DNA of 64,000 nt from Thermoleophilia bacterium. Lineage in GTDB: Bacteria > Actinomycetota > Thermoleophilia > RBG-16-64-13. The stretch covers positions 3,609,845 to 3,673,844 of the forward strand of contig JAOSKU010000001.1 of the NCBI GenBank assembly GCA_027493445.1, given 5' to 3'. Positions 16,862-46,960 of this stretch are shown here, piece by piece. The notes under the pieces were generated by a model. The model saw nothing but the letters and a program-made list of their open reading frames with translations. It was not told where the DNA came from and did not search any database. The position numbers and the translations under genes are program-made. Each line of letters opens with the position of its first letter. Position 1 is the first letter of the stretch.

Positions 16862-18012
16862 TGGCAACGCGGGTGAACCCCAAGCTCATCGACGACCTGG
16901 AGCGCTACGGCGCCCAGGACGTCTCGAAGTGCTACCACTGTGGCAATTGCTCGGCCGTGTGTCCCTTCTCGCAGGGTACCCGCATCTTTCCGAGGCGGTC
17001 CATGCGCCACCTGCAGCTTGGCCTGGAGAAGCGGCTGGAGGGAGACCTCGAGCCCTGGCTCTGCTACTACTGCGGGGAGTGCTCCGAGGACTGCCCCCGG
17101 GAGGCGGAGCCCGGCGAGACCATGATGAGCTTGCGGCGGTGGCTGACCTCCCGGTACGACTTCACCGGGATCTCGCGGCTCTTCTACCTCTCCTGGAAAG
17201 CGGAGCTCGGGGCTATCCTTCTGGTGGCCCTTCTCGCGGCGATCGGCTTCCTGTTGCTGGGGTTCCTGCACGGCAACATCGGGGTCTATGACGGTCCCGG
17301 CGCCTTCCTGCCGAGCCATATCGTGCACTGGTTCGACTGGAGCATGGCCGTGGTGCTGGTGATCCTTCTCGGTATCAACTGCGCCCGCATGTGGTGGTTC
17401 ACACTGGGCAGGGAGGGTCGCGACGCGGGTTTCCACGTTCCGCTGCGGGAATACCTGACCCGCGCCTATCTACTCCCCTTCCATTTCGCAACCCAGGCGC
17501 GCTATGCCCGGTGTGAGCGCAAGCGTCCGTGGGTGGTCCACCTGGCGCTGATGCTGAGCTACGTGACCATGCTGGTGCTCATCATGTTCTTCCTCGGCTT
17601 CATGCAGGCGGGGCCGGGCATCGACTGGCGGGTGCACGCCTTCGGCTACGCTGCGGCCCTGGGGTTGGTGGTGACCACCGCCTACGCTATGTGGGGCCGG
17701 GCAAAACGCACGGAGATGCGCTACAAGCACTCTCATGAGTCCGACTGGATCTTCCTTATCCTGCTCTTCGTGGTGGCGGGCACGGGAGTCCTCCAGCACA
17801 TCCTGCACCGCGCCGACCTCGACGTGGCCGCCAACGTCGTCTACGTGATGCACCTGATGGGCGTCGTGCCCATGCTGGTGCTGGAGGTGCCGTTCGGCAA
17901 ATGGGCCCACATGGCCTACCGGCCGCTGGCCATGTACTTCGCCGATCTGCAACCACGGGCGGTCCCCTCGAGATCGCGGGCCGAGACCGCGCGACGTGCC
18001 GCGGCGAGCTGA
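16861..18012 (+). CDS. QmoC/HdrE-like membrane subunit: N-terminal 2x[4Fe-4S] domain fused to a NarI/HdrE-type cytochrome-b-like membrane domain
   Basis: CYHCGNCSAVCP and CYYCGECSEDCP motifs are followed by 5-6 predicted TM helices carrying conserved His (HIVHWFDW, HAFGY, HLMGV). The TGATG start overlaps the upstream stop. Confidence 0.65.
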   Translation: MATRVNPKLIDDLERYGAQDVSKCYHCGNCSAVCPFSQGTRIFPRRSMRHLQLGLEKRLEGDLEPWLCYYCGECSEDCPREAEPGETMMSLRRWLTSRYDFTGISRLFYLSWKAELGAILLVALLAAIGFLLLGFLHGNIGVYDGPGAFLPSHIVHWFDWSMAVVLVILLGINCARMWWFTLGREGRDAGFHVPLREYLTRAYLLPFHFATQARYARCERKRPWVVHLALMLSYVTMLVLIMFFLGFMQAGPGIDWRVHAFGYAAALGLVVTTAYAMWGRAKRTEMRYKHSHESDWIFLILLFVVAGTGVLQHILHRADLDVAANVVYVMHLMGVVPMLVLEVPFGKWAHMAYRPLAMYFADLQPRAVPSRSRAETARRAAAS

Positions 18013-18023
18013 GGGAGAACGCC

Positions 18024-19774
18024 ATGAAACAGCACAGGACCGGCGTATACGTGTGTGCTTGTGGGACCAACATCGCCAAGGTGGTGGACTGTGACGAGGT
18101 GGTGCGCGCAGCTGAGGGGATCCCCGGGGTTGCGGTGGCCACCACCTACAAGTACATGTGCTCTACGCCCGGGCAGGAGATGATCATCGCCGACATCCAG
18201 GAGAAGGAGCTGGACCGGGTAGTGGTGGCCTCGTGCTCGCCGCGCATGCACGAGATCACCTTTAGAAAGGCCGTCAATAAGGCCGGTCTCAACCCCTACT
18301 ACCTACAGATGGCGAACATCCGCGAGCAGTGTAGCTGGGTACACGAAGACGGGGCCGAGGCCACCCAGAAGGCTATCGACCTGGTGCGCGCGGCTGTCGG
18401 CCGGGTGATTCTACACGAGCCTCTCGAGAGCCGCACGGTAGCCATGTGTCCGAACACCCTGGTCCTGGGTGGGGGCATCGCGGGCCTTACTGCGTCCCTG
18501 GAGCTGGCCGACGCGGGCTACCAGGTGTACCTGGTGGAGAAGGCGGACCATCTGGGCGGCAACCTGGCCCGGGTGGACCTGACCGCCCCGTACCTGGACT
18601 CGGCCCACGATCTCCTGCGCGAGCGGATCCATCGGGTGGCGGGTCACCCTCAAATCGAGACATTCCTAGGCGCTGGGGTGAAGTCGCTCGAAGGCTACGT
18701 GGGGAACTTCACGGCCACCGTGGTCCTGCCGGGGGCGACGGTGCCCGGCCGGCCGCCGGAAGCGGTGCCGATCGATCTTCGCGGGTTCTCGAGGTTGGGA
18801 GCGTGATCGTCGCCACCGGCTACCAGGAGTTCGACGCCTCGCGGATCACCCACTTCGGCTACGGCAAGTTGCCGAATGTCATCACGTCGTTCGAGTTCGA
18901 GCGGATGGTGCGCGAGGGGCGCATCGAGACGGCCGAGGAACGCCGGCCCCAGTACGCCGCCATCCTGCATTGCGTCGGCAGCCGGAGCCTGGAGTTCCAC
19001 GCCTATTGTTCGCGCGTCTGCTGCATGACCGCCCTGAAGTACGCCCACGAGCTGAAGTCCGCCGTCCCCGGCTGTTACGTCAGCGACGTGTACATCGACA
19101 TGCATGCCTTCGGCAAGGGGTGCGAGGATTTCTACCGGCGGAGCTCCGAGGTCAAGACCCTCTTCATCATGTATGGAAAGAACGACTACCCGGTGATCCG
19201 CAAGGCGGAGCCGGGGGACGACTGCGAGATGCTGATCGAGGTGAGCGAGCAGCTCTCGGGCGAGCGCATCGAGATCCCCGCTGACCTGGTGATCCTCATG
19301 GTGGGGATGGAAGCCCGGGCGGACGCCGCCGAGGTCGCCCGCCTGGTGCGCATCAGCCAGGACAAGGACGGGTGGTTCATCGAGAGCCATCCGAAGCTCG
19401 ATCCGGTGGCCACGACCACCGAAGGGGTCTTCATCGCCGGCACGTGCGCGGCTCCCAAAGACATCCCCGACTCGGTGGCCCAAGCTCGGGCCGCCGCCGC
19501 CCGCATCCTCGGCAAGATCGCCAAGGGGATCATCGAGGTGGATGCCGTGTTCGCCGAGATCGACGAGGAGGCGTGCTCGGGGTGTCGCATCTGCAACGAG
19601 CTCTGCCCGTATGGGGCCATCGAGTACAAGGCCGACGTTAAGCGAAGCCGGGTCATCTCTGCCCTCTGCAAGGCCTGCGGCGCCTGCGTAGCGGCGTGCC
19701 CGTCCGGCGCCATCAGAGCTCGTCACTTCACCGACGAACAGATCCTTGCCGAGATCGAGGGGGTGCTGGCATGA
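18024..19774 (+). CDS. hdrA: Heterodisulfide-reductase subunit A-like flavoprotein 2 (no inserted ferredoxin; C-terminal 2x[4Fe-4S]), split by one apparent single-G deletion near 18785
   Basis: Cys-rich N-terminus MKQHRTGVYVCACG...CSTPG...CSP. FAD-binding LVLGGGIAGLTASLELADAG. C-terminus GVFIAGTCAAPKDIPDSVAQARAAAA then CSGCRICNELCP and CKACGACVAACP. ORFs 17901..18806 and 18446..19774 join if the cgcggg run has one more G. Confidence 0.8.
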
Positions 19775-33821: not shown

Positions 33822-34243
33822 GTCCCGGTCGGCCTGCCTGAGCAGGCTGTCGGGAAATGACGCTTCGCCGCCGGAGTGCGCTGGGTACGCGCCAGGCTAG
33901 GACGCAGGGAGCGCTCGTAGCAGCGCTACGGGCGCGACTGAGGACAACGCATGGCGCCGCCCAGTGCGGTCCGGCGGCCGAGGTTTCGTTTTCCGACAGC
34001 CTCTGAGTCCCGGCGCTCTGGGCCGGCGGAACGGAGCGCGCCCGCGGCCCGCCATGGAGCTGTGGCCGGCTTCGCTGGTGGGCAATGCGTCCCGCTCAGC
34101 GACGCGCGACCTCGTCAAACATTCGATTCCTCTCATGTGAGAAGCAATCTCATGCCGGTCGTGTACGGTGATGTCGACCACCCATCGCGCCCAGAAGGCG
34201 AAGCGTGATTCTGAGGCCTACGACCCTCGGAGGAGGAGACATC

Positions 34244-34735
34244 ATGGGGCTTTGGTGGAGTCCAGCCGGCCGTGGGAGAGGGAGTGCGGTCGCGGGACCG
34301 GCGGCGACCGTGGTGGACGTGGAGACGGCCGTCTCGGCGGACATCGCGGCCGGGATCCGGGGGGCGCAGCTCGACGAGTACGCCGACATCCTGGTCTCGT
34401 TGCGGCTGCGTCGAGTCGACCGGGGTCCCGGCGCCTTCCTTCAGGTCGCTCCGGAGGAGAGCAGCGACGAAGAGATCTACCGCACCAGCGCCGAGTTCTG
34501 TCTGACCGATCTGCCCGAGACAGTGGCGGCGATGGCCGTCTTGCCCGATGTTCCCTGGCCCGCCAAGTGGGCGGAGCTTAGCTACCGCGAAGCCTTGCTC
34601 CAGATCATGCACACCGCCCGGCTGCTCCTGGCCGACTTCAACCCCAACACCGTCGCGTGCTACCGGCACGCGTGGCAGCAGGAGGCCCATATGTGGGAGA
34701 CCTGGCTCCAGGAGTTCGCGGAGTCCTTTCAGTAG
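34244..34735 (+). CDS. Hypothetical protein
   Basis: Acidic, coding-like ORF (SAEFCLTDLPETVAAMAVLPDVPWPAKWAELSYREALLQIMHTARLLLADF) with no recognisable motif. The start may be 34205 or 34244. Confidence 0.35.
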   Translation: MGLWWSPAGRGRGSAVAGPAATVVDVETAVSADIAAGIRGAQLDEYADILVSLRLRRVDRGPGAFLQVAPEESSDEEIYRTSAEFCLTDLPETVAAMAVLPDVPWPAKWAELSYREALLQIMHTARLLLADFNPNTVACYRHAWQQEAHMWETWLQEFAESFQ

Positions 34736-34908
34736 GCGCGATCCGCCCACGCGGAGAAACTGCCGTCCACGCCAACACCCGCGTGATCACGCTGGCGCGT
34801 GATCCCCGAGGTCGCACCTGCACACCAGTTGGGGTATCGTGAGGACCGGCAGCCTGGCGGCTCGGACGCGAGGCCGCGAGCACTGGGTTACTCGGGACCA
34901 GGGGGATC

Positions 34909-36274
34909 ATGGAGCGGGACCGCGGCGGGGCATTCGAATCGGCACCGAGCACCCTGTCCACTCTTCCTTTCCACTGGGGCTGGGCCGTCCTCGTGATGGG
35001 TGCCCTCGTGACCTTCGGTTCGCTCGGCCTGGGTCGGTTCGGCTACACGATGGTGCTGCCTTCGATGCAGAAGGGCTTGGAGCTTGACAACGCCCAGGCC
35101 GGTGCGCTGGCCACCACCGGCCTGGTGGGGTACATGGTGCTGGCGGTCGGAGGGGGCCTGCTGGCGTCGCGCTACGGACCGCGCATCGTGATCTCGGTGG
35201 GCCTGCTGGCCACTGGCGCCGGCATGCTCCTGACCGCCGCCGCCGGAGGATTCCTCTCCGCCGCGGTCTTTCAGCTTGTCACCGGCATGGGCACGGGCGC
35301 CAGCAACGTGCCGGTGATGGGTCTGCTGGCGGCCTGGTTCTCGGCCAGGAGGCGGGGCCTGGCTTCTGGTATCGCTGTATCCGGGATATCGGTTGGCCTC
35401 ATCGTCGTGGGTGCGTTGGCGCCGCGCATCGTCGCCGCCTACGACCCTGATGGCTGGCGGGCCGCCTGGCTTGTGCTGGGGGCCATGTCGACGGCGCTGG
35501 CCGTGCTGAGCTTCCTGCTGCTGCGAAACCGCCCGGCCGACATCGGGCTGGAGCCCTTGGGCTCAGTGAAACGGTTGGAGCCTGTGGGCTCGGTGAAACC
35601 AGGGATGCCGGACCCGGGTGGGGAGGCGTCCGCTCAAGTTCGAACGAGGGGCGCCGCCTCGGCCGTCGCCAAGCCGGGGGGCCGGCTCGCGTGGGGCGCG
35701 GTGTACCGTGCGCCCGCCGTGTGGCACCTGGGTTTGGTGTATGTGGCCTTCGGGTTCAGCTACGTCATCTACACCACCTTCTTCACGAAGCACCTCATCT
35801 CCGAGGGCGGGTATACCCAGGCCCAGGCCGGCACCCTTTTCATGGTCATGGGCTGGGCCAGCCTCGCCTGCGGAGTGATCTGGGGCTCCATCTCCGGACA
35901 GGATCGGGCGAAAGCGGGCCCTGGCCGCTGTCTACGCCCTTCACGCCGTCAGCTTCGCTCTGTTCGGGCTCTGGATCGCGCCGCTGGGCTTCACGATCTC
36001 GGCCGTTCTCTTCGGCCTCACCGCCTGGAGCATCCCGGCCATCATGGCGGCCACGTGCGGCGATGTGCTCGGGCCGCGGCTGGCGCCGGCGGCCCTGGGC
36101 TTCATCACCCTGTTCTTCGCCGTGGGCCAGACCGTGGGACCGTCACTGGCGGGAGCCATTGCCGACGCCGCCGGCAGCTTCAACCCGGCCTTCCTGCTGG
36201 CCGCCGCGGCGGCCGCCCTGGGGGCGGCGGGGTCGCTGATGATCCCGGCCGCGTCGACGGCCGGGAGGCATTAG
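34909..36274 (+). CDS. MFS transporter (MFS_4 / YbfB-YjiJ-like), interrupted by an apparent 1-nt insertion near 35897
   Basis: 12-TM-like profile (GRFGYTMVLPSM, GLVGY). Downstream of WGSIS the reading frame continues in ORF 36044..36274 as DRIGRKRALAAVYALHAVSF... Confidence 0.7.
35548..35601 (+). repeat. Imperfect 27-nt tandem duplication inside the MFS gene
   Basis: ctggagcccttgggctcagtgaaacgg / ttggagcctgtgggctcggtgaaacca encode LEPLGSVKR-LEPVGSVKP in the central cytoplasmic loop. Confidence 0.6.
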
Positions 36275-36526
36275 GAGCACCCACCGGTCCCTCGCCTGCT
36301 CGGCTCGCGGGAGCCCGGTCGACGGTCTGAGCGCCCCCGGCACGGGCATCGAGGCGGGTTGAGTTGGCCGCCGCGGCGTGAGAAGCTCTCAGAGGCAGTT
36401 TGCGGCCGGGGCGGAGCATGTTCGGCCGGAACTTGGGCGGGTCGCCGGGCGATAAGGTGGCCGCCGCGTTTGTTGGTGCAGACCGTCGGGCTTCGACGGT
36501 GGAGGGGAGGATCCTTGGAGGAACGG

Positions 36527-37327
36527 GTGACGCTCGAAAGCGCGCTGGCCGAGATGGAGATGCGGACCCAGGCGGCCGGGGCTTCGGCGAAGAAGCTGTC
36601 TAAGGCCATCCTCAGCGCCCGCCGGGCCAGCACCGGGGGCGATATTGCGGCCATGAAGAAGGCTCTGGCCGACGCCCGGGACATGCTGCGCGTGGTGGAG
36701 GTCGAATTCGCGGACGCCGTGACCGCCTGGCCGTTCGATGAGGAGCAGGAGCAGGACTACTTCGAGTCGGGGCACTTCACCCGGGAACTTCTGGCAGCCG
36801 CGGGCGAGATCGAGCTCGCCATCTCGGAGGAGGACGGACGGCTGATGTGCTACCCCTCCGTGATACGGGTGGATCCGGGCCGCCGTTTGGTGACCGTCGA
36901 CAAGAAGCCCCACCGCGCGGTGCGACCCTCGGTGCTGGCCGCCCACCTGCGCGCCCAGCAGACGAAGACCGTCAGATTCAAGGCCGGCCCTTTCTTGGAA
37001 GCGCTCTACGCCGCGTGGAAGTACGCGCGTCACGCCGACGGGAAAGGCAAGGGTCCGCTGCGGGATGTCCCCGTTGACCGCATCTACGCGGTGCTGACGG
37101 TGGCTCCCGGCAGCGGAAAGGAGTACTCACGCCAGGAGTTCGGCCGGGATCTGTTCCTGCTCGAGAGCAGCGGGGAACGGCGCACGAGGAAGGAGGCTGA
37201 GATTCACTTCTCGCGCTCCACCGGTACCAAGGGCGGCCGGGGCGTCATCACCATCGTGCGCGAAGACGGCAAGCGTGTTCTGTACTCGTCGATCTCCTTC
37301 CAGGAGGCGGCGGCGAATGGTTCCTGA
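36527..37327 (+). CDS. Hypothetical protein A of the SNF2-associated cassette
   Basis: GTG at 36527 is preceded by GGAGG. The protein is about 266 aa, with a coiled-coil-like N-terminus and a basic C-terminus. Its 3' end overlaps the next gene by 11 nt. Confidence 0.5.
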   Translation: MTLESALAEMEMRTQAAGASAKKLSKAILSARRASTGGDIAAMKKALADARDMLRVVEVEFADAVTAWPFDEEQEQDYFESGHFTRELLAAAGEIELAISEEDGRLMCYPSVIRVDPGRRLVTVDKKPHRAVRPSVLAAHLRAQQTKTVRFKAGPFLEALYAAWKYARHADGKGKGPLRDVPVDRIYAVLTVAPGSGKEYSRQEFGRDLFLLESSGERRTRKEAEIHFSRSTGTKGGRGVITIVREDGKRVLYSSISFQEAAANGS

Positions 37328-38288
37328 GATCGGCGTCGAGGAGTATGCCGCCTTTCTGAGCGCGGAGTACCTGGAATCGTTCGTCGGATCCGGAGGTTCC
37401 GCTGTCAAGGTCGCCGTGGTTCCCGACCCACGCCACGCAGGCGCCCTTAACGACGACGTGATGCGGCGGGCGGGGCTCCGGAGCTACACGGCCGTCGCGG
37501 TGGATTCAGCCTGCACGCGCGTCCACCTGATCCAGCAGATCTTCTTCGCCGTGGCCGCCGAGCTCGATTGGGCGGCCTACGCCCGCAAGGTGGTCGACAC
37601 GATGCTGGTGCGGATCTATGGGGAAGACGTTCGGGGCGCCGGGACCCTCGAACAAGTGGCTCGCCTGACCGAGCTCGACGAGACTCTTGTCCGCACCGAA
37701 GTCGGCAAGGCGCTTTCGAACGACGTCCTCCGGAACTACGCGCTGGCGAAGGACTTCCGCATCGCCATGATGCATCTCTGCCTGGCGGAGCTCGAACCCG
37801 AGGCGTACACCGAGGAAGGCCGGCTCGCCGTGCTCGAGTGGCTGCGGGGAGAGCTTCGGCTGATCTCGGCGCTCAAGGAGATGTCGATCTTCCAGCGGAT
37901 AGCCCGGCACAACGCCCGGTCGATACTCGCCTCGACGGCGCGTTGGGTGCACCAAGCGGGCTCCCCCGGCCTGTGTCTCGTGATCAACGCGGGCCGCCTG
38001 GCGGTGAGCCGGCGGGGCGACGTCGCCGACGAGGGCCTGTACTACACCCCCGCCGCCGTGATGGATGCCTACGAGGTGCTCCGGCAGTTCATCGACGCCA
38101 CCGATGAGATGGAGCACGTGATGATCCTGGTGGTCGCGCCCGCCGAGCTCCTCGATGCTGAGAGCAAGCGGGGCTTCGCGGCCTACCCGGCCCTGCGCAA
38201 CCGCATCTGGGACGACGTGCGCGACCGGAACCGAGTCAACCCGTGCGCCCCCATGGTGCGGATCGCCGGCGACAGGGGAGGGGGCTGA
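37317..38288 (+). CDS. Hypothetical protein B of the SNF2-associated cassette
   Basis: About 323-aa alpha-helical protein starting MVPEIGVEEYAAFLSAEYLESFVGSGGSAVKVAVVPD. No assignable domain. Its stop overlaps the start of gene C (ATGA-type). Confidence 0.5.
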   Translation: MVPEIGVEEYAAFLSAEYLESFVGSGGSAVKVAVVPDPRHAGALNDDVMRRAGLRSYTAVAVDSACTRVHLIQQIFFAVAAELDWAAYARKVVDTMLVRIYGEDVRGAGTLEQVARLTELDETLVRTEVGKALSNDVLRNYALAKDFRIAMMHLCLAELEPEAYTEEGRLAVLEWLRGELRLISALKEMSIFQRIARHNARSILASTARWVHQAGSPGLCLVINAGRLAVSRRGDVADEGLYYTPAAVMDAYEVLRQFIDATDEMEHVMILVVAPAELLDAESKRGFAAYPALRNRIWDDVRDRNRVNPCAPMVRIAGDRGGG

Positions 38289-39538
38289 TGATCGATCAGA
38301 TCACTGCGCTGCACGCCCGGCGGGCCATCGAAGCGCTGCGGGCCGGCGTGCCGAACCGGGACGCGGTTCGGGCCCTGGGTTTCGCCGACGACCCCCTGGT
38401 GGAGGAGCTCGACCGGCGGCTCGACACGCTTGCCGCCGGTGCGCCGGACGGCGGCGGTCTGCTGCTGGCGGCGGAGTTCGGAGGAGGCAAGTCGCACGCG
38501 CTCGAGTACCTGCGCCATCGCGCGCTCGAGCGGAACATCGCCGTCAGCAAGGTGGTGGTCTCCAAGGAGACCCAGCTCTTCGATCCGCTGAAGCTCTTCC
38601 GCTCGGCGGTCGACAACCTCGCGGTCGATGACCGCACGGGCGCTGTGTTCGACGACATCGCCACGACCCGCCTCAACAGCGACCCCCACCGCGATCGCTT
38701 CGCGGAGCTTGGGGCTTGGCTGCAGACGAGCGGGCTGAACGCCTGTTTCGCGGCGTCGATGTGGCTGTTCGAGCACGCTCGGGCGAACGCCGAGCTGCAG
38801 AGTCGGCTGGTGGCTTTCTGGGGTGGAGGCGCGCTCAAGCTTACGGAGCTGAAGAAGGACCTGCGGCTGTGCGGTCGGGCCGGCTACTATCCCTTGGAGA
38901 AGATCCGGGCCCGCGATCTCGCCCGGGAGCGCTTCGTGTTCTTGGCCCGGCTGCTCCAGGCGGCCGGTTACGACGGCTGGCTGCTCCTGCTCGACGAGCT
39001 CGAGCTGGTCGGGCGCTACAGCGTGCTCCAAAGAGCCCGCTCCTACGGAGAGCTGGCGCGCCTGCTGGGCCTGGACGATCAGGGCCCCATCCCAGGGCTT
39101 TTCACCGTGGGCGCCATCACCCCCGACTTCGAGTCCGCCGTGCTTCTGGGCAAGGACGACTACAACCAGATCGGGTTCCGGATGCGGGCCCGCGGCGACG
39201 CCGAAAGCGAGCTCACAGCCGTCCTGGCTGAGAGGGTCATGGAGCGGATGCGCGGCGGCTTCCTCTCGATCCGCCGGCCCGAGCAGGGAACCCTCGAGGC
39301 GACCTTCGCCCGTCTGGCCGCCGTCTACCAGGCCGCCTACGACGTCCCACCTGAAAGGCCCCCGGTCATCTTCGACGGGACCTGGCAGATGAGGGAGTAC
39401 GTCCGCTCCTGGATCACGCGCTGGGACCTCCGGCGCTTCGCGCCTGACCACGAGGCTCATCCCGTCGTCTTTCCCATGCCTGTGGACTACACCGAGAACG
39501 TCGTGCTCGAGCGCCCGCCCGAGAACGGCGAGGACTGA
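38288..39538 (+). CDS. P-loop NTPase C of the SNF2-associated cassette (KAP/DUF2791-like ATPase)
   Basis: Walker A LLLAAEFGGGKSHALEYL. Walker B WLLLLDELELVGRY. About 416 aa. Confidence 0.6.
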   Translation: MIDQITALHARRAIEALRAGVPNRDAVRALGFADDPLVEELDRRLDTLAAGAPDGGGLLLAAEFGGGKSHALEYLRHRALERNIAVSKVVVSKETQLFDPLKLFRSAVDNLAVDDRTGAVFDDIATTRLNSDPHRDRFAELGAWLQTSGLNACFAASMWLFEHARANAELQSRLVAFWGGGALKLTELKKDLRLCGRAGYYPLEKIRARDLARERFVFLARLLQAAGYDGWLLLLDELELVGRYSVLQRARSYGELARLLGLDDQGPIPGLFTVGAITPDFESAVLLGKDDYNQIGFRMRARGDAESELTAVLAERVMERMRGGFLSIRRPEQGTLEATFARLAAVYQAAYDVPPERPPVIFDGTWQMREYVRSWITRWDLRRFAPDHEAHPVVFPMPVDYTENVVLERPPENGED

Positions 39539-39549
39539 CCGAGGATCCC

Positions 39550-40110
39550 ATGGCGATACCTTTCCGGCCGTCGGACTCCGTCGAGCTCGGTGAGGCCGCC
39601 TTCCTGCGGGTCATCCCCTTCGTCGATGGCGGCGGCTACGACGGCGCACTCTTTGTGATGGACGCCCGGGGCGAGCCGGTGGAGTTCTGCTTCTCGCGCA
39701 TCGAGACGCCCCGTACCGCGCTGTGGCGGCCCAGAGATCTCGCCCGGCGGGCTACGGTGGAGCTGACTCAATCGCTGCTGGAGGTCTGCTCCACCTCTCC
39801 CCTCCTGCTGCTCGCCCGGGCCGAAGAGGTGGGCCCGGATGTGCTCGGGCAGGAGCTCCTGGTGGAGATCCCGGTCTGCCGGGTGGCTTCGTCGCTCTCG
39901 CTGGCGGTGGTGTCTCCGGAGGAGCGGGAAGAGAAGGCGTCGGGGGAGGAGGCTCTGCACCTCTTCTGGTTCCCCGAACCCCCTCGGGATGGGGAGCCGG
40001 CCCGGCTGGTGATCGACCGGCTGGCGGCTTCGGGGCTCCTCACGGAGCCCTTCGAGCGGGCCGAGGCCGGGCTGCGGGAAGTGAGAAGCGAGGGGCCGGA
40101 GGAGCCATGA
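39550..40110 (+). CDS. Hypothetical protein D of the SNF2-associated cassette
   Basis: 186-aa ORF with coding-like composition. Its stop overlaps the start of the SNF2 gene (ATGA). Confidence 0.45.
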   Translation: MAIPFRPSDSVELGEAAFLRVIPFVDGGGYDGALFVMDARGEPVEFCFSRIETPRTALWRPRDLARRATVELTQSLLEVCSTSPLLLLARAEEVGPDVLGQELLVEIPVCRVASSLSLAVVSPEEREEKASGEEALHLFWFPEPPRDGEPARLVIDRLAASGLLTEPFERAEAGLREVRSEGPEEP

Positions 40111-42316
40111 GCCTCTTCGCCCGCGGCCCCGGCCCGGCTCGGACCCTGCGCGCGCGGGTGCCTCACCCCCGGGGATCGACGGCAGTGCGGCTCACGGTGC
40201 CTCGTCTGAACGAGAGGGCCGGGACCGCCAGGAGCTTCGCCCCCGTGGCGCATCCCGGGGACACGCTGCGAAGCTCGGCGGGAGCCCTCGCGCTCGGGCT
40301 CGCCACCCCACCGGCCACGTCGATCGGGCTGCGCGCGGGGCCAACGGCCGGGGTGGGACCGCTCACCGGGCGGGCGGCGCGTGCGGGGCACGCGGCGGAC
40401 GGTGAGGGCGTGGCCGGCGAAGCACCCGCCGGAGTCGGTGCAGGCCGGGGGAGCGTCCCCGAGGATCGGGCCTCGCTTCGGGAGCGGCTGCGCGCCGTTC
40501 TGGCGCCTCCGGTGGTCGCGCTCCTTCCTCGGGCCGGGTCCATCCTGCACTGGCCGGCCTCGCTTCACCCGTTTCAGCTCGACGGCGTGCGCGTGCTCCT
40601 CGCCAAGCCTGAGGTCCTCCTGGCCGACGACATGGGCCTGGGCAAGACCGTGCAGGCCATCGCCGCCTTGCGCATCTTGCTGCACCGGGGCGACGTCGAG
40701 ACGGCACTGGCGGTCGTGCCGGCCAGCCTCATCCACCAGTGGCGGCACGAGCTCACCCGCTGGGCCCCCGAGCTGCGCGTCAGCACGGTGGCCGGCTCCC
40801 GGGAGCAGCGCTTGTTTGCCTGGACTGTGGCGGCCCACGTCTTCCTCGTGACCTACGAGACCCTGCGCTCCGACTTCTCCCCCACCCAGGTTCGGGGCCC
40901 CGGCGCCGGACTTGGGGTATCGTGCTGCTCGACGAGGCGCAGAAGGTCAAGAATCGGGATGCCGACGTCAGCGCGGTGTGCAAGATGCTGCCGCGGACAC
41001 GTTCGTGGGCTCTGACGGGCACGCCCCTCGAGAACAGCGTCGACGACCTCGCGTCGATCCTGGAGTTTCTGCAGCCGAACCCTCGGGGTGAGCCCGCGCG
41101 CCCCCTCCGTTTCGATGCCTCGCTGGTCCAGCGACACGAGCAGGTGCAGCTGCGGCGCCGGAAGATGGACGTGCTGGAGGAGCTCCCCCCGAAGACCGTC
41201 AACCGTGTGCTCCTCGACCTGTTCGGCGAGCAGCGGCGCTCGTACGAACGGGCGGAAGAGGAAGGCGTGCTCGAGCTGCGCCGCCGGGGAGAGACCATTC
41301 AGCTGACCCATGTTTTGCAGCTCATCACTCGGCTCAAGCAGGTCTGCAACTTCTGCCCGGAGACCGGCGCCTCGGCCAAGCTGGCCGACCTGGCCGGCCG
41401 GCTCGAGGTGCTTGCCGCCGAGGGCCACAAGGTTCTGGTCTTCAGCCAGTACACCGACGAGATCTTCGGCGTCCGGGCGATCGCGCACGGCATCGGCGCC
41501 TTCAAGCCGCTCACCTACACGGGGGAGCTCACCCTGCAGGAGAGGAGCCGCCGGATCGACCGCTTCAAGAGCGACCCGCTGCACCGGGCTTTGGTGCTAT
41601 CGTTGCGCGCCGGAGGGCAGGGCCTCAACCTGCAGGAGGCTTCGTACGTGGTGCACTTCGACCGCTGGTGGAATCCGGCCACCGAGCGCCAGGCGGAGGA
41701 TCGCAGCCACCGCCTGGGCCAGACCGTGCCGGTGACTGTTTACACGTACACCTGCGCCGGGACCATCGAGGAGCGCATCGCGCAGCTTCTGGAGGAGAAG
41801 CAGAGGCTGTTCGACCTGGTGGTCGACGAGGTCAGCATGGACCTCGACCGCCTGCTGACAGCGGAGGACCTGTTCGGACTCTTCGGACTGCGGCCTCCTG
41901 GCCGCCCCCGCGGCCCGGAGGCCAAGGGCCGGCGCTCGTTCGCGGAGATGACCGGCCGGGAGTTCGAGGAGTACGTGGCCGATCTCTTCCGGGCCCTGGG
42001 GTTCTCCGTCGAGCTGACGCCGGCCACCCGCGACCGGGGAGTGGATGCCGTCGCGCGCCACGTGGACGTGGTGGGCATCGAGACCAGCCTGTACATCCAG
42101 TGCAAGAACCATGCTTCGCCGGTGGGGGTGGAGACGGTCCGGGCCCTCATCGGGGCGGTCCCGGCGGACGATCCCGGGGCGAGGGCGGTGCTGGTGAGCC
42201 CGTCGGGTTTCTCGGGCGAGGCGGCTCGGCTGGCCCGGGAGCGCGGCGTGCAAGTGGTCGACGAGAGGGGCCTTCGCGTACTGGCGGAGCAGGCGGCTCG
42301 CGGCTGCGGGCGGTGA
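40107..42316 (+). CDS. SNF2-family helicase fused to a C-terminal Mrr-like restriction-endonuclease domain, with an apparent 1-nt deletion in the C-run near 40898
   Basis: SNF2 N-terminus LDGVRVLLAKPEVLLADDMGLGKTVQA. DEAQ box WGIVLLDEAQKVKN (in ORF 40739..42316). Helicase-C motifs LVLSLRAGGQGLNLQEASYVVHFDRWWNPATERQAEDRSHRLGQ. C-terminal EFEEYVADLFRALGFSVELTPATRDRGVDAVA...IQCKNH (Mrr_cat-like). The first ~130 codons are low-complexity, so the start is uncertain. Confidence 0.8.
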
Positions 42317-42463
42317 GGTCGGTGAAAGGGGTTCTCGGGGCTCAGCCCTGGGCCACTGGCTTCCCGTGGGGACGGACGGGTGGTGCGGGATGCGAGCCGT
42401 AGCGGGATGGCGATTGCCCCGCCGGGAGAACCTGCCGCGACTCCTCGACTGACCACTGGGGGG

Positions 42464-42687
42464 TTACAGGAGCTCTCTGAACTCCTCGATTGTTAGGCCC
42501 GCCTGCCGGATGATGGCCCGCAATGTGCCCTTGGCATCTCGCTGTGGTTGGGGACCGTGATTCTTCGGTGGGGACGGGCGACCTGTCGCATGACGATGTG
42601 GCTGCCTCTTTGTCTATCTTTCTCGTACCCGACCTTCGTCAGGGCCGTCACCGCCTCCCGGCCAGATACTCGTGGGAGAGGGCTCAC
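42464..42687 (-). CDS. hicA: HicA-family toxin (mRNA interferase), with an apparent 1-nt deletion near 42530
   Basis: N-terminus SGREAVTALTKVGYEKDRQRGSHIVMRQ. After a -1 correction the C-terminus reads KGTLRAIIRQAGLTIEEFRELL, the canonical HicA tail. Confidence 0.7.
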
Positions 42688-42896
42688 ACCGCTACCTCGA
42701 CAACCTCCTCGTTGATCGACGGCGGTATGGGTTCATCATGGGCTTTCAAGCTTTCCAGATAGGCCTGCATCGCTTCCTGGATGTTGCGCACAGCCTCAGA
42801 GCGCGTCTTCCCTTGGGAAATGCACCCGGGCAACGAGGGTACCTCCGCGACGAACATGCCGTCTTCGTCCTGTTCGACTAGGACGCGATACTTCAT
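42684..42896 (-). CDS. hicB: HicB-family antitoxin (UPF0150)
   Basis: MKYRVLVEQDEDGMFVAEVPSLPGCISQGKTRSEAVRNIQEAMQAYLES. The start is preceded by GGGAGG. It overlaps hicA by 4 nt. Confidence 0.75.
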   Translation of the reverse strand: MKYRVLVEQDEDGMFVAEVPSLPGCISQGKTRSEAVRNIQEAMQAYLESLKAHDEPIPPSINEEVVEVAV

Positions 42897-43232
42897 GGAT
42901 GCCTCCCTTGCGCGTTCCAGCCCCGACCGCATGGGCGGCGCTTCAGTCTCCCATGCTCTTGAGCTGGACAAGCCACCACCCATTGTACACCGGCGGGTCG
43001 CGGGGTGGCCGCACGTGGACGACGTGCGGTCGCTGCCGGAAGGTGCAGTCACCCGGTGGATGAAGCAGCGGTGCGGACGAAGAACACGGTCTTCGACTTC
43101 AGCGGGCTCGCAGTCGCTGAGCGCATCCATCACGCCCAGATCTCCTCGAGTGACCCTGGCTCCGGCCACCCGTGGGAAGACGTTCGCGCCCCTATCTCCG
43201 CTCGTCTGCTGCAAGGCACGTGATGCCGAGCC

Positions 43233-43820
43233 TCATGCACCACCAGCCCGGCACAGCTCGAGACTCTCCTGTTCTTTGGAAAGAATCTCGGCAATCTCGT
43301 CGCAGCCGTTGTCTTTCAGCGCGGGAATGGTGTCGCGAAGCTCCAAGACGTTGTTGAGGGCCGCGACGAACGGGTACGCAGAGGTGCCGGGGACGACGGC
43401 CCCATGATGGTCCGCGAGCCACCGCGAGACCTCAGACCACCGCCAGATACGGTTGCGGGCGTTTCCCAGTCTCGTCAGCGGGGGCGGGAAGAAGCCCGTT
43501 CCGCGTTTGCCGATCACGAGCAATCGAACGTATTCTCTGCTCCACCCTGTTCGCTTCGATATGTCTGTGAGAGTCACGTAGTCGTCCGGCTCGACCCGTG
43601 AGATGCGAACGCCCGGAATCGCCTGCTCGATGGCTCGGATGGCCGACATGACAGCCTGGGGTAAGCCGGCAGCTTCGCGCACGAAGTCGGCATAAGCAAC
43701 ACCGGCGGTGCGACCGAACATAGCGTCATCGCAGCCGGCCTCGAACAAGATGTCGAGCTGCTCGTCCGTGGGGAAGCTTAGGGGTGCGGAAAGAAGCAGT
43801 GTAAACTCGAACTTCTGCAT
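43233..43820 (-). CDS. HTH-containing putative antitoxin/regulator (possible long-form HicB-like partner)
   Basis: About 195-aa protein with a C-terminal HTH-like segment (VTLTDISKRTGWSREYVRLLVIG). It is immediately downstream of a HicA-like small ORF. Confidence 0.45.
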   Translation of the reverse strand: MQKFEFTLLLSAPLSFPTDEQLDILFEAGCDDAMFGRTAGVAYADFVREAAGLPQAVMSAIRAIEQAIPGVRISRVEPDDYVTLTDISKRTGWSREYVRLLVIGKRGTGFFPPPLTRLGNARNRIWRWSEVSRWLADHHGAVVPGTSAYPFVAALNNVLELRDTIPALKDNGCDEIAEILSKEQESLELCRAGGA

Positions 43821-43825
43821 GTCTC

Positions 43826-44062
43826 TCACCGCCCACATGGGCACTGGAGCACTCGTCTTCTCAGCTCCTTTGCATGGTCCTGAGGAACGCGGGGAGTCGA
43901 CCATATCGAAGCTCGGCATTGGCCTCTGCCCGACTTACCCAAGCAGTACATCGAACCCCATGCGTGTTTGCTCTGACCTTTGCCCTGCTCGACCTTCCAA
44001 CCGTGGATCTCAGCGAACCGAAGGGCATCTTCGACCTCCTTGTCGGGGTGGCCGCCCCTCAT
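43826..44062 (-). CDS. Putative HicA-like small toxin
   Basis: 78 aa: EVEDALRFAEIHGWKVEQGKGQSKHAWG resembles the HicA dsRBD-like core (GW...GSH). The match is divergent. Confidence 0.35.
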   Translation of the reverse strand: MRGGHPDKEVEDALRFAEIHGWKVEQGKGQSKHAWGSMYCLGKSGRGQCRASIWSTPRVPQDHAKELRRRVLQCPCGR

Positions 44063-44576
44063 GTTGGCAGTATAGCAACAGGAGGGCAGCTAGGCCGTGG
44101 GAATTCCGTATGCCGGTCGACTTCCAGCTGTTCCAGACAGCCGATCGACAATTCAGTTCGCAAGATTCCGAAGCGCACCAACCTCCAACCCCCAAGACAG
44201 AGCAGCCCGTGGATGTTGAGTCTGCGGCAGGAGGAATGTGGGCGGCATAGGCCTTTGGTCTGAACTTGGGCCTCGCTCGAGGCGTGGAATATGCAGTCAC
44301 CTTCCCCACGACCTCCGCAAATGCCTCCACTTCCTTCTTTCCCTCCGACCAAGGTTGTAGGATGGCACCCATAGCTCATGCTGGAGCTCATCCTCACCCG
44401 CGAGCGGGAGAAGAGCCTCATCAAGGCCACCCAGGGCCTGCAGTTCCTGGTGCGCGACGAGCTGCGCACCTACCGGGGCCGCCAGGGCTCTGAGTAGCGT
44501 TGCTGGTGAGGCGCGTCCGCGATCGCCTGGCGATAACTGGATGAACCCACCGCCGGTGAGTACAATGGGGTCATAG

Positions 44577-44648
44577 GCCGGTCTCCGGCCGGGATGTGCG
44601 TGCCACACATCTACACGTACCGCCTGGGGCCGGCCGTCGCTTCGTGTA
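44577..44648 (+). other. Three consecutive stem-loops upstream of the carboxylase operon (candidate leader/regulatory RNA structure)
   Basis: gccgg-tct-ccggc; gatgtg-cgtgcca-cacatc; tacacg-(25 nt)-cgtgta. Non-coding region. Confidence 0.25.
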
Positions 44649-44970
44649 GCGCACCGCCGCTAGTCCGTCCAGACCAATCACTGAACTGACCGCTTGGTCG
44701 CCGTTCGCCTCCACCGGTTCGTCACGCCGACCGTTCGGAAACGCGGCTTCGACCCGGCCACCCGGCTACGTAAGATGGTATGCGAGTGGGGAATCATCGG
44801 GGGGATTCTTTGCATCCACGCCTTTGCCCGCCGCCCGCGCTGCCCGCGCGCCGGCGCTTATGCGCCGGTGCGTGGGCGCCGGGCGCCGTCTGTATCCTCC
44901 CGCGACATGACGAAAGGAGCGCCATGGGGGCACAGGAAAGGCTTCGTCGAAGGGTGCGGAAAGGAGCAGC

Positions 44971-46960
44971 ATGGGTTTCACTGTAGATATCGACACAGGG
45001 GGGACCTTCACCGACGGCCTCTTCGGAGACGGCACCTCCAGCCGGCGGGCGAAGGTCGATACGACGCCGCACGATCTCACCATCTCCCTCTTCAACTGTC
45101 TCTACGCGGGCGCCGTCGCGTTCGGTCTGGCGAACGTCAAGGACCTTCTGCGCGGATGCGACATCGTGCGCTGGACGAACACCATAGCCACGAACGTCGT
45201 GGCGGAGCGGAAGGGGCCCCGAGTGGGCCTGTTCGTCACGCAGGGGCATGAGCGGTCCCTCTACTCCGGTAACGGTGAGAGTCCTGCCATCGGACACGTG
45301 GTGGGCGCCGAGAACATCGTCGGCGTCAGTCAGCCCGTGGACGTGGAGGACCTGCTGGTGCGGCTGAAATCGCTCCTCGACCAGGGAGTGCGCCGCATCT
45401 GCATCAGCCTCAAGGACGGCCTGGAGAACAGCGCCGACGAGGCCGCCGTCAAGCGGGTGTTCGAAGACCAGTATCCCGACCATTACCTCGGTACCATCCC
45501 GCTCCTCATGGGCAGCGACATCTCCAAGCATCCCGACGACATGACCCGCACGCACATGGCCCTGCTGAACGCGTATGTCCATGGGCCGATGGCCCAGGCC
45601 ATGTTCAAGGCGGAGGACGATCTGCGCCACGAAGGCTTCATCAAGCCTCTCCTGGTGGGTCACATCAACGGGGGCGTCACCAGGGTTGCGAAGACCAAGC
45701 CGGTGGACACCATCGAGTCGGGACCCATCTTCGGCATCCATGCCGCCGCCTACTTCGCGGAGAAGTACGGGCTGCCGCGGGTGGTGACCTTGGATGTGGG
45801 CGGCACCACCGCCAAGGTGGGTCTGGTGCAGGACGGCAGGCCCGCTCTCACACGCCCGGCGGACGTGCTGGGCATACCGCTGAACCAGCCCATGCTCTCA
45901 TTGAAGAGCATCTCGCTTGGCGGAGGGACGGTCGCCCGGGTGGCCGGCGGCGACCTGACTCTGGGCCCGGACAGCATGGGCGCGTACCCGGGCCCCGCAT
46001 GCTACGACCTCGGGGGTACCGAGGCCACGGTCACCGACGCGTATCTGGTGAGCGGCTTCCTCGATCCCGACTACTTCGCGGGGGGACCAAACGGGTAGTG
46101 CTGGAGCGCGCCAAGAAGGCGTTGGCCGAGGCCGTTGGGGGCCCGCTGGGGATCGATGAGCACGCGGCGGCCGCCAAGGTGGCCGAGGTGGCGGCCGATC
46201 TGGTGGCCGACGACGTGCGCCGGGCGCTGGCCACGCTCCATGCCGAGGCGCCGGACCAGGTGCTCTTCGCGTTTGGGGGAACGGGGGCATCGCGGCCGCG
46301 CGTGTGGCCGAGAAGGCGCACATCCGGAAGGTCGTGGTCTTCTCGCTGGGCTCGGTGCTGAGCGCGTTCGGCTCCTCCGTGGCCGACGTCGCCCACACCT
46401 ACGAGTACGCCCCGTTCCTGCCGGTGGAAGACACGGATCGGGTCGAGGCCTTGATCGACGACATGTGGGCGGAAGCCCGTCGGGATTTCCGCGGCGAAGG
46501 CTTCGTCGAGGCGGACATCGTTGCCGACGTGGAGTTCACCGTGACCCAGTCCCCCGACCATCACGCCGTGGAGGAGCTGGTATGTGGCTTCGCAGTGGAC
46601 GGCCCGCCGGAGCCGGGCAAGACCGGTCCCTGCCTCACGGCTGCCGGTGTCCGGCCGGGCAAGGATTCACTAGTGGAGATCGTACGTCTGCGCGCCCGGG
46701 TGCCGGCGGTCAAGACCGCCCTGCTGGAGCAGGCCCCCGGTGACGAGGACCCGAGCGGCGCGCGCAAAGGCAGCCGCACGGTGTGGTGGAATGCGGCGGG
46801 CGGTGTGGATTCCGCCCTGTACGAGTGGGACCGCCTTCAGCCCGGCGCGCGCGTCGTAGGCCCGGCCGTCATCGAGGGCGTCGACACCACCTACCTCGTT
46901 CCGGAGCATTGGGACCTCAGAATCGACAGCTTTGGCAACGGACAGATGGAGAGGAGGTAG
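44971..46960 (+). CDS. Hydantoinase/oxoprolinase A-family subunit (acetone/acetophenone-carboxylase-like paralogue 1), split by two single-G deletions near 46083 and 46276
   Basis: N-terminus MGFTVDIDTGGTFTD. ORFs 44971..46098, 45999..46361 and 46304..46960 join as FAGG|TKRVVLERAKK and FAFGG|NGGIAAARVAEKAH if each G-run has one more G. Total length is about 663 aa. Confidence 0.75.

What the first reader, a model, noticed from the sequence alone, without database searches (positions are those of the whole stretch)
36527..42316. Uncharacterised five-gene cassette centred on a SNF2 helicase-Mrr nuclease fusion and a P-loop NTPase, in a defence-island context
Five genes are co-directional and overlapping or tightly coupled: hypothetical A (36527-37327), hypothetical B (37317-38288), a P-loop NTPase with GGGKSH Walker A and LLLLDELE Walker B (38288-39538), small protein D (39550-40110), and a roughly 735-aa SNF2 ATPase with a C-terminal Mrr-cat-like nuclease domain (40107-42316). 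The ATGA and 11-nt overlaps suggest translational coupling of one module. The neighbours are two HicAB toxin-antitoxin pairs immediately downstream and a compositionally odd low-GC patch; VapBC and SbcCD lie about 14 kb further down, beyond an intervening catabolic operon and two-component system. This is the classic make-up of a defence island. The cassette has no methyltransferase, PglZ, ZorAB, DrmABC or other partners that would place it in BREX, DISARM, Zorya, Druantia or Wadjet. Proteins A, B and D carry no motif I can assign. A helicase-nuclease plus ATPase plus unknown accessory proteins is the usual architecture of anti-phage or anti-plasmid systems, so this is a candidate undescribed defence system.
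Basis: partly seen in the sequence, partly recalled or inferred. Interest (0 to 1): 0.85.

Follow-up and report, generated by a model that had tools for sequence, protein, structure and literature searches.

The report
Unnamed five-gene helicase-nuclease defence candidate
Five tightly packed genes (two related ATPases, a DNA motor with a DNA-cutting tail, and two proteins of previously unknown type) recur in the same order in hundreds of unrelated environmental bacteria and match no named system, so this is a credible but untested candidate for a new defence against viruses or plasmids.

Summary
All five genes are real and at the stated coordinates. The SNF2-Mrr gene (E) is frameshifted in this window. 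Three independent short-read assemblies of the same strain show that this is a one-base homopolymer assembly error. The true gene encodes an intact 736-aa protein.

The order A-B-C-(D)-SNF2(-Mrr) is conserved. An A relative is encoded in 321 of 185,579 species genomes across many phyla. The flanks differ from locus to locus, often carry toxin-antitoxin genes or transposases, and sometimes carry known defence genes. No gene reaches an equivalog cutoff for BREX, Zorya, DISARM or Dpd. A and D are absent from Pfam, PADLOC, NCBIfam and PHROGs. I found no paper describing the cassette.

Verdict: an undescribed candidate DNA-targeting defence system. Its function is inferred, not shown.

The parts
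36527..37327 (+). Gene A, 266 aa. It belongs to a new family. The model shows an N-terminal long helical hairpin (residues 3-65), a small beta unit (100-129) and a C-terminal helix/beta module that looks like a winged helix.
37317..38288 (+). Gene B, 323 aa. A BrxD-family (PF10923, Orc/Cdc6-type AAA+) paralogue without a Walker A GK[ST] motif. Presumably non-catalytic.
   Evidence: Pfam 39.1 bits. PADLOC BrxD 1.2e-7 and SngB 2e-4. The family consensus has GGAAVKF in place of the P-loop. hhalign of the B family against the C family gives E 3e-5 over 199 columns.
38288..39538 (+). Gene C, 416 aa. A BrxD-family AAA+ ATPase with conserved Walker A (GGGKSH, K68) and Walker B (LLLLDELE).
   Evidence: Pfam 70.1 bits. 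NCBIfam BrxD 65.7 bits against a cutoff of 350. Motif conservation.
39550..40110 (+). Gene D, 186 aa. A new family with an RNase H-like fold of the EndoV/UPF0215/Piwi/UvrC-C/NurA clade. In many homologous loci it forms the N-terminal domain of the SNF2 helicase.
40107..42316 (+). Gene E, the SNF2 helicase-Mrr nuclease fusion. The true length is 736 aa. In the window it is interrupted by a one-base deletion.
   Evidence: Intact P0241 and L092.
40875..40879 (+). C5 homopolymer that is C6 in an independent short-read assembly. This is the site of the apparent frameshift in E.
   Evidence: It is the only difference between L092 and the window over 6978 nt.
40575..41350 (+). SNF2 ATPase lobe of E, with motif I DDMGLGKT and motif II LLDEAQ. 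The frameshift site lies inside it.
   Evidence: Pfam SNF2-rel_dom hits on both fragments (1.4e-19 and 2.6e-23). Sequence.
41411..41719 (+). Helicase_C lobe of E, containing QAEDRSHRLGQ.
   Evidence: Pfam 7e-18.
41942..42274 (+). Mrr_cat PD-(D/E)xK nuclease domain of E. The motifs GVDAV ... IQCK are present.
   Evidence: Pfam 85.2 bits against a cutoff of 21. PADLOC ZorD profile PDLC00631 is matched through its Mrr part.

Best explanation
The cassette is a self-contained, horizontally mobile, ATP-driven DNA-targeting system, most likely an anti-phage or anti-plasmid defence.

Inferred mechanism:
- C is an active Orc/Cdc6-type AAA+ ATPase of the BrxD family. Together with its degenerate paralogue B it forms a hetero-oligomer.
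- With A (a coiled-coil protein with a winged-helix-like end), this complex binds or surveys DNA and loads or activates the effector.
- The effector is the D + E unit. E is a SNF2 double-strand DNA translocase. Its N-terminal partner or domain D, with an EndoV/Piwi-like RNase H fold, recognises, and possibly nicks, a DNA structure, lesion or end.
- In the window's subtype, the C-terminal Mrr-type PD-(D/E)xK nuclease of E cuts the DNA.

Shown here: the domain identities, the gene order and its conservation, the B-C and D-E gene fusions, and the intact state of E.

Inferred, not shown: the physical complex, the order of events, the target, and the defence role itself.
For: Architecture:
- PF10923 hits for B and C, and SNF2 + Helicase_C + Mrr_cat for E.
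- C keeps Walker A and B; B has lost Walker A.
- D has the EndoV/DUF99/Piwi fold.

Functional linkage:
- A-B-C is invariant in order in 87 loci. SNF2 lies directly downstream in 66 of 78 decidable loci.
- D is fused to SNF2 in 29 loci, and B is fused to C in L042 and L075.
- The overlapping start and stop codons in the window suggest translational coupling.

Mobility and context:
- 321 of 185,579 species genomes from many phyla encode an A relative.
- Flanks are unrelated between loci.
- Toxin-antitoxin modules or transposases lie next to most of the eight loci with called genes, and HicAB lies next to the cassette here.
- Of 145 flanking ORFs from 25 loci, about 10 hit defence profiles (AbiE, AbiL, PARIS AriA, pAgo-SIR2, HEC-01, mad3, PDC-M12), and 4 hit PIN.

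Precedent:
- In type 2 BREX, BrxD and the BrxHI helicase form a tightly linked dyad, and BrxD has been proposed as a helicase loader (PMC12839542).
- SNF2-Mrr fusions such as ZorD act as defence effectors. This rests on my own knowledge and on the PADLOC profile name.
Against: - There is no experimental evidence of any kind.
- The cassette was not found on any plasmid (PLSDB), phage (INPHARED) or IMG/VR viral contig.
- Most flanking genes are ordinary metabolic genes. The enrichment for defence genes is modest and was not tested statistically.
- Twelve loci have A-B-C with no helicase nearby, so the helicase-nuclease is not obligatory.
- D lacks a conserved acidic residue in its first core strand in the window's subtype, so its nuclease activity is doubtful.
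- A has no detectable similarity to anything, so its DNA-binding role rests on secondary-structure appearance only.
- I could not run the newest DefenseFinder models or search the subscription-only literature.
Confidence: 0.55

Rival explanations
1. The cassette is an accessory genome-maintenance or DNA-repair module. An EndoV/UvrC-like lesion- or structure-recognition domain is coupled to a SNF2 translocase, in the manner of RapA or Mfd. The Orc/Cdc6-type ATPases act at stalled forks, R-loops or damaged DNA of the host itself.
For: - The cassette is chromosomal only.
- Most neighbouring genes are housekeeping genes.
- E also scores against RapA-type and SCO1167-type helicase models.
Against: - Only about 0.17% of species genomes carry it, scattered over many phyla.
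- Its position is not conserved, and it is often next to toxin-antitoxin genes, transposases or defence genes.
- A C-terminal Mrr restriction-type nuclease is typical of restriction and defence rather than repair.
- The modular gain and loss of D and Mrr resembles the behaviour of conflict systems.
Confidence: 0.2
2. The cassette is a divergent or partial form of an already named system: the BrxD-helicase accessory dyad of type 2 BREX, a ZorD-only remnant of Zorya type I, or a Shango-like ATPase-helicase system.
For: - B and C hit the BrxD profiles, and weakly hit SngB.
- E's best PADLOC hit is ZorD, 5e-54, including the Mrr part.
Against: - Scores are far below the equivalog cutoffs: BrxD 65.7 and 29.5 against 350; ZorD 118 against 1500; DrmD 48 against 610; DpdE 41.5 against 500.
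- No PglZ, PglX, PglW, BrxC, ZorABC or TerB protein appears in the cassette or in the eight gene-called neighbourhoods.
- The helicase is SNF2, not Lhr-like as BrxHI is.
- A and D have no counterpart in PADLOC.
Confidence: 0.1
3. The genes are the machinery of a mobile element itself (transposition, replication or partition). Orc/Cdc6-clade AAA+ regulators such as TnsC, MuB or IstB pair with RNase H-fold enzymes.
For: - In L087 the cassette lies between two ISAZ013 transposase genes.
- Established knowledge: AAA+ partners of DDE transposases belong to a related clade.
Against: - The window has no terminal inverted or direct repeats, no tRNA and no integrase at the cassette borders.
- D's closest matches are EndoV and DUF99, not DDE transposases, and D lacks a DDE triad.
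- The conserved unit ends exactly at A and E, and the neighbours differ between loci.
Confidence: 0.07
4. In this genome the cassette is a decaying relic, because its largest gene is frameshifted.
For: E is split over two frames in the window.
Against: - Three independent short-read assemblies of the same strain differ from the window only by single-base homopolymer indels.
- One of them restores E to an intact 736-aa protein, and another restores the upstream MFS gene.
Confidence: 0.03

Closest known systems
BrxD-BrxHI accessory dyad of type 2 BREX (Pgl)
   Same: A PF10923 (DUF2791/BrxD, Orc/Cdc6-type AAA+) ATPase is encoded next to an SF2 helicase. The ATPase has been proposed to load or activate the helicase (PMC12839542; Pfam hits).
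   Different: Here there are two BrxD-like paralogues, one of them degenerate. The helicase is SNF2 with an Mrr nuclease, not the Lhr/Ski2-like BrxHI. There is no PglX, PglZ, PglW or BrxC. Scores are far below the BrxD equivalog cutoff. The extra proteins A and D have no BREX counterpart.
ZorD of type I Zorya
   Same: Both have a SNF2 helicase fused to a C-terminal Mrr-like nuclease. ZorD is the best PADLOC profile match to E (5e-54).
   Different: ZorA, ZorB and ZorC are absent. The NCBIfam ZorD score is 118 bits against a cutoff of 1500. E is much shorter (736 aa against about 1000-1200 profile positions) and lacks the ZorD N-terminal region. Its N-terminal partner is the RNase H-fold protein D.
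Shango (SngABC)
   Same: A three-part logic: an accessory protein, a BrxD-like ATPase and an SF2 helicase. SngB is weakly similar to C (2.5e-7) and to B (2e-4).
   Different: A has no TerB domain. There are two ATPase paralogues. The helicase is of the SNF2-Mrr type. D is absent from Shango. The composition of Shango is recalled from my own knowledge and from PADLOC names, and was not tested in detail.
Argonaute/EndoV-clade RNase H modules coupled to helicase-nucleases (for example DdmDE, HerA-NurA)
   Same: An RNase H-fold protein of the Piwi/EndoV/NurA clade works with an ATP-driven motor and a PD-(D/E)xK nuclease. The systems themselves are recalled from my own knowledge.
   Different: D is a minimal 186-aa domain with no MID or PAZ domain, so guide binding is unlikely. 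The motor is SNF2, not Lhr-like or HerA. There is no sequence similarity.

Membership tests
BREX type 2 (BrxD) | The protein reaches the NCBIfam BrxD equivalog cutoff (350 bits). | tested here: not met
   C scores 65.7 bits and B scores 29.5 bits.
BREX type 2 (BrxD) | PglZ, PglX, BrxC/PglY and PglW are present in the locus, with a Lhr-like BrxHI helicase. | tested here: not met
   None of these occurs among the five genes or in the eight gene-called neighbourhoods. The helicase is SNF2.
Pfam PF10923 BrxC_BrxD (DUF2791) family | The score is above the Pfam gathering threshold (22.2 bits). | tested here: met
   B scores 39.1 bits and C scores 70.1 bits. All homologues in the gene-called loci carry the same annotation.
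Pfam PF10923 BrxC_BrxD (DUF2791) family | Intact Walker A (GxxxxGK[ST]) and Walker B motifs. | tested here: met
   Met for C (GGGKSH and LLLLDELE, conserved). Not met for B, which has no GK[ST].
Zorya type I | ZorA/ZorB motor and ZorC present, and ZorD reaching the equivalog cutoff (1500 bits). | tested here: not met
   ZorD scores 118 bits (C-terminal part) and 34 bits (N-terminal part). The cassette contains no ZorABC-like genes.
Shango | A TerB-domain protein SngA together with SngB and SngC. | tested here: not met
   A and 39 of its homologues have no TerB hit or any other Pfam hit. SngB is matched only weakly. SngC is not among the 25 families listed for either fragment of E.
DISARM / Dpd | DrmD or DpdE at equivalog level, with the partner genes DrmABC or DpdA-K. 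| tested here: not met
   DrmD scores 47.8 against 610 bits. DpdE scores 41.5 against 500 bits. No partner genes are present.
SNF2 family helicases | SNF2-rel_dom and Helicase_C above threshold, with helicase motifs I, II and VI. | tested here: met
   Scores are 70.7 and 83.0 bits (cutoff 24.9) and 65.3 bits (cutoff 23.5). GLGKT, DEAQ and QAEDRSHRLGQ are present in the sequence.
Mrr_cat PD-(D/E)xK nucleases | The Pfam threshold is met and the D ... (E/Q)xK motif is present. | tested here: met
   85.2 bits against 21. GVDAV and IQCK are present in the sequence. Catalytic activity was not tested.
RNase H-like superfamily, EndoV/DUF99/Piwi clade (protein D) | The characteristic fold: a three-strand meander, a helix, strand 4, and a C-terminal helix. 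| tested here: met
RNase H-like superfamily, EndoV/DUF99/Piwi clade (protein D) | A complete acidic catalytic set, including an Asp in the first core strand. | tested here: inconclusive
   E42, E93 and E166 are conserved throughout the family. In the window's subtype no acidic residue is conserved in strand 1. In the fused subtype, 23 of 26 sequences have Glu at position 24.

The most novel reading that the evidence does not exclude
This is a previously undescribed, phylogenetically widespread defence system. A heteromeric pair of BrxD-type (Orc/Cdc6) ATPases and a protein of novel fold load or license a SNF2 motor. The sensing head of that motor is a minimal EndoV/Piwi-like RNase H domain, and a Mrr nuclease is an optional cutter. 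If this is true, it would define two new protein families (A and D). It would also provide a simple stand-alone model for what BrxD-type ATPases do to helicases in type 2 BREX.
Probability: 0.4. Interest if true: 0.75.

Novelty: new variant of a known kind. Interest (0 to 1): 0.62.

Why it matters
The role of BrxD-type ATPases next to helicases in type 2 BREX is unknown. This cassette isolates that pairing in a compact operon with no methyltransferase or PglZ, which would make the question directly testable.

The cassette also reveals two protein families that are missing from Pfam. One of them (D) shows a previously unreported coupling of an EndoV/Piwi-clade RNase H domain to a SNF2 motor.

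The system is almost confined to uncultured soil, sediment and groundwater lineages: Chloroflexota, Vicinamibacterales, Binatia, Thermoleophilia and Desulfobacterota. That may explain why defence-discovery screens centred on cultured Proteobacteria and Firmicutes have not reported it.

Practical point: anyone cloning from this MAG must correct the homopolymer error in E.

Tried and rejected
- D, sequence searches. A profile search against PDB sequences and a scan of 40 family members against Pfam found nothing. The relation to EndoV is therefore at fold level only.
- Plasmids, phages and viral contigs. tblastn of A against PLSDB and INPHARED, and a pattern scan of IMG/VR, found no match.
- Element ends. 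The window has no credible flanking repeats, no tRNA and no Rfam family.
- An alternative effector in the A-B-C-only loci. Their neighbours are unrelated housekeeping genes such as MutS, GH57, radical SAM and isochorismatase.
- The idea that D is the active nuclease wherever Mrr is missing. Glu24 at the end of strand 1 is found in 23 of 26 fused forms. However, forms with a separate D and no Mrr mostly lack it, so Glu24 is a clade signature and not evidence of a nuclease hand-over.
- An apparent N-terminal Mrr domain in L069. It was an artefact of a weak secondary HMM hit.
- Literature. Searches for DUF2791, PF10923, BrxD-like, BrxD + helicase, Shango, SNF2 + Mrr + Cdc6, and SNF2 + RNase H-like found no description of this cassette.

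Full report
THE OBSERVATION

- A is 36527-37327 with a GTG start. The product is identical to the 266-aa NCBI protein [quoted passage not shown], which sits on a 4.6-Mb contig.
- B is 37317-38288.
- C is 38288-39538.
- D is 39550-40110.
- E starts at 40107 and stops at 42316.

The junctions are an 11-nt A/B overlap, a TGATG B/C overlap, an 11-nt C/D gap and an ATGA D/E overlap. C has GGGKSH and LLLLDELE.

THE FRAMESHIFT IN E

The N-terminal part, up to about 40880, lies in one frame. The rest lies in the frame one base back. Homologous proteins align across both frames.

I looked for independent assemblies of the same strain.
- Logan short-read contigs L090 and L091 (two different SRA runs) match window 33964-40648 and 33964-38353 respectively. 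Both differ from the window at exactly two sites: an extra C at 35894 and a missing C at 36334. The first splits the upstream MFS transporter gene in the window. That gene is an intact 454-aa gene in L090.
- Logan contig L092 (a third run) is identical to window 39069-46045 except for one additional C in the C-run 40875-40879. It encodes an intact 736-aa protein, P0241, with the junction ...SDFSPHPGSGPRRRTWGIVLLDEAQ.

The frameshift is therefore a homopolymer error of the long assembly, and E is a functional-looking gene.

WHAT THE FIVE PROTEINS ARE

E has SNF2-rel_dom, Helicase_C and Mrr_cat. The helicase motifs GLGKT, DEAQ and QAEDRSHRLGQ and the nuclease motifs GVDAV...IQCK are all present. 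Its first 130 or so residues are a poorly conserved, low-complexity linker.

C is a PF10923 (BrxC_BrxD/DUF2791) ATPase scoring 70 bits. Its Walker A and B motifs are conserved across 82 family members.

It aligns to C by profile-profile comparison (E 3e-5, 199 columns). The family has GGAAVKF where C has the GK[ST] P-loop. B is therefore a degenerate, presumably non-catalytic paralogue.

A and D hit nothing in Pfam, PADLOC, NCBIfam or PHROGs. The same is true when 40 members of each family are scanned individually against Pfam.

CONSERVATION OF THE CASSETTE

A has 126 homologues in the 90%-clustered database. It has 1040 cluster representatives at E <= 1e-3 among 1.84 billion. All are about 255-280 aa, and none is fused to another domain.

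A pattern and tblastn scan of one genome per species found an A relative in 321 of 185,579 species. Nearly all are MAGs: Actinomycetota, Chloroflexota, Vicinamibacterales, Binatia, Desulfobacterota, Nitrospirota, Gemmatimonadota, Firmicutes and Proteobacteria.

I scanned 87 independent loci with iterated HMMs built from the window proteins.
- A is always followed by B and then C. The exceptions are contig-end truncations.
- A SNF2 helicase lies directly downstream in 66 of the 78 loci where this can be judged.
- D is present in 55 of those 66 loci.

The subtypes are:
- 29 loci with D fused to the N-terminus of the helicase, and no Mrr.
- 17 loci with a separate D and a SNF2-Mrr fusion. This is the window's type.
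- 9 loci with a separate D and no detected Mrr. In two of these the 3' end is cut off.
- 11 loci with a helicase but no D.
- 12 loci with A-B-C only.

B and C are fused in L042 and L075. The gene fusions are classical evidence that D works with E and that B works with C. Independent gene calls with Pfam annotation in eight metagenomic loci show the same order.

GENOMIC CONTEXT

Flanks differ from locus to locus. Those with called genes show:
- HEPN/nucleotidyltransferase pairs, NERD and DUF4160/DUF2442 in L001.
- PIN/MazE in L003.
- SIR2 and Unstab_antitox in L085.
- PhdYeFM and several transposases, including two ISAZ013 copies bracketing the cassette, in L087.
- HEPN/NTase and a Mu-type transposase in L088.
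- DUF772 in L004.

I scanned 145 flanking ORFs from 25 further loci. Most are metabolic genes. Four are PIN proteins, and about ten hit defence profiles: AbiEii, AbiLi/ii, PARIS AriA, a pAgo with its SIR2 partner, HEC-01A, mad3, PDC-M12A and HNH. The three "pVip" hits are radical-SAM HMPTM-type proteins and probably not viperins. This is suggestive of defence-island association, but it is not a statistical test.

In the window itself the island is small. It holds the cassette, one verified HicAB pair and two ORFs without Pfam hits in a slightly lower-GC patch. It lies between an MFS transporter gene and a downstream ORF (44971..46098) that I read from its sequence alone as hydantoinase-like.

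There are no flanking repeats, tRNAs or Rfam elements. A was not found on any PLSDB plasmid, INPHARED phage or IMG/VR contig.

HOW IT PROBABLY WORKS (INFERENCE)

BrxD is classed as an Orc/Cdc6-type AAA+ ATPase. In type 2 BREX it forms a tightly linked dyad with the BrxHI helicase, for which a helicase-loading or activating role has been proposed (PMC12839542). Active-plus-degenerate Orc/Cdc6 pairs are also described in other mobile conflict loci (PMC10853773).

By analogy, I propose the following. B and C form a hetero-oligomer in which only C hydrolyses ATP. Together with A it engages DNA and loads or licenses the D-E unit. E translocates on double-stranded DNA. D supplies recognition, and perhaps nicking, of a particular DNA structure, lesion or end, as its EndoV, UvrC, NurA and Piwi relatives do. 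In the window's subtype the Mrr domain makes the cut.

The invariant A-B-C core and the exchangeable effector end (D fused, separate or absent; Mrr present or absent) fit the sensor-core plus variable-effector pattern of defence systems. I put the probability that this is an anti-mobile-element system at about 0.55. Each individual mechanistic step is less certain than that.

RIVALS

A host DNA-repair or genome-maintenance role (0.2) is suggested by D's structural relatives and by the chromosomal, largely housekeeping surroundings. It fits poorly with the 0.17% patchy distribution, the variable location and the Mrr fusion.

Membership of a named system (0.1) fails the tests I could run:
- BrxD scores 65.7 and 29.5 bits against a cutoff of 350.
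- ZorD scores 118 against 1500.
- DrmD scores 48 against 610.
- DpdE scores 41.5 against 500.
- None of the partner genes is present.

A role as mobile-element machinery (0.07) lacks element ends and a DDE triad. Pseudogene decay (0.03) is refuted.

NOVELTY

Full-text searches of the open literature for DUF2791, PF10923, BrxD-like, BrxD with helicase, Shango components, SNF2 + Mrr + Cdc6, and SNF2 + RNase H-like found no description of this cassette. I read two recent comparative-genomic surveys of BREX-related and Dnd-related systems, and neither includes it.

There are limits to this check. Subscription-only papers and the newest DefenseFinder models could not be checked, and PADLOC-DB is the 2023 release.

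I class the cassette as a new variant within the known kind "ATPase plus helicase-nuclease defence system". It has two new protein families and a new domain coupling, RNase H-like with SNF2. Interest is moderate to high (0.62). The cassette is robustly conserved and makes the BrxD-helicase question testable. Against that, new candidate defence systems are now common, and the function here is wholly inferred.

Noticed in passing
window 35894 (MFS transporter gene 34909-36274, + strand): The upstream MFS transporter gene is split over two frames by an extra C. It is an intact 454-aa gene in the short-read contigs L090 and L091 of the same strain. A third homopolymer difference (a missing C) lies in the intergenic C-run at 36334. 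The window's assembly therefore carries about one homopolymer indel per 4 kb in this region, and other apparent pseudogenes in the window should be treated with suspicion.
   Followed up: yes
window 42493-42687 (-) and 42684-42959 (-): A HicA toxin and HicB antitoxin pair lies immediately downstream of E (Pfam 6.7e-11 and 2e-11). It is the only toxin-antitoxin pair I could verify here.
   Followed up: yes
window 43233-43919 (-), 43826-44062 (-), 44010-44372 (-): These ORFs lie in the slightly lower-GC patch (0.62-0.63 against about 0.68) and have no Pfam hit. L092 has a called 201-aa gene of unknown function in the same place.
   Followed up: partly
L075:1045-5835: In a Nitrospirae MAG, A is followed by two tandem genes, each a B-C fusion. 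No SNF2 helicase lies in the 5 kb downstream.
   Followed up: no
L087:29-18474: The cassette is bracketed by two ISAZ013-family transposase genes (29-1246 and 17257-18474), with further DDE transposase fragments upstream. This could be a composite-transposon-like arrangement. In this locus the C gene is called in two pieces.
   Followed up: no
L023:13035-17041; L059:13356-15857; L072:4185-7816: These loci have insertions of 2.5-4 kb inside the cassette: between C and D in L023, between C and the helicase in L059, and splitting C in L072. The inserted content was not examined.
   Followed up: no
L041:13088-15964 and L079:12802-15870: In two actinomycete MAGs (Actinocrinis and Streptosporangiaceae), A-B-C is followed by a much longer and more divergent helicase ORF of about 960-1020 aa (HMM E about 1e-130), with no D and no Mrr. 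This may be a further subtype.
   Followed up: no
L011, L024, L031, L048 (Vicinamibacterales), upstream of A: A radical-SAM protein with an HMPTM-type zinc ribbon lies just upstream of the A-B-C-only cassettes in several Vicinamibacterales genomes. It gives weak 'pVip' hits in PADLOC. This probably reflects lineage synteny rather than a functional link.
   Followed up: partly
D family alignment, position 24 and position 45 (window numbering): The fused-D clade has Glu at position 24, the end of the first core strand, in 23 of 26 sequences, and has mostly lost E45. The separate-D clade keeps E45 (96%) and has no acid at position 24. The two clades may therefore have different active-site arrangements.
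   Followed up: partly
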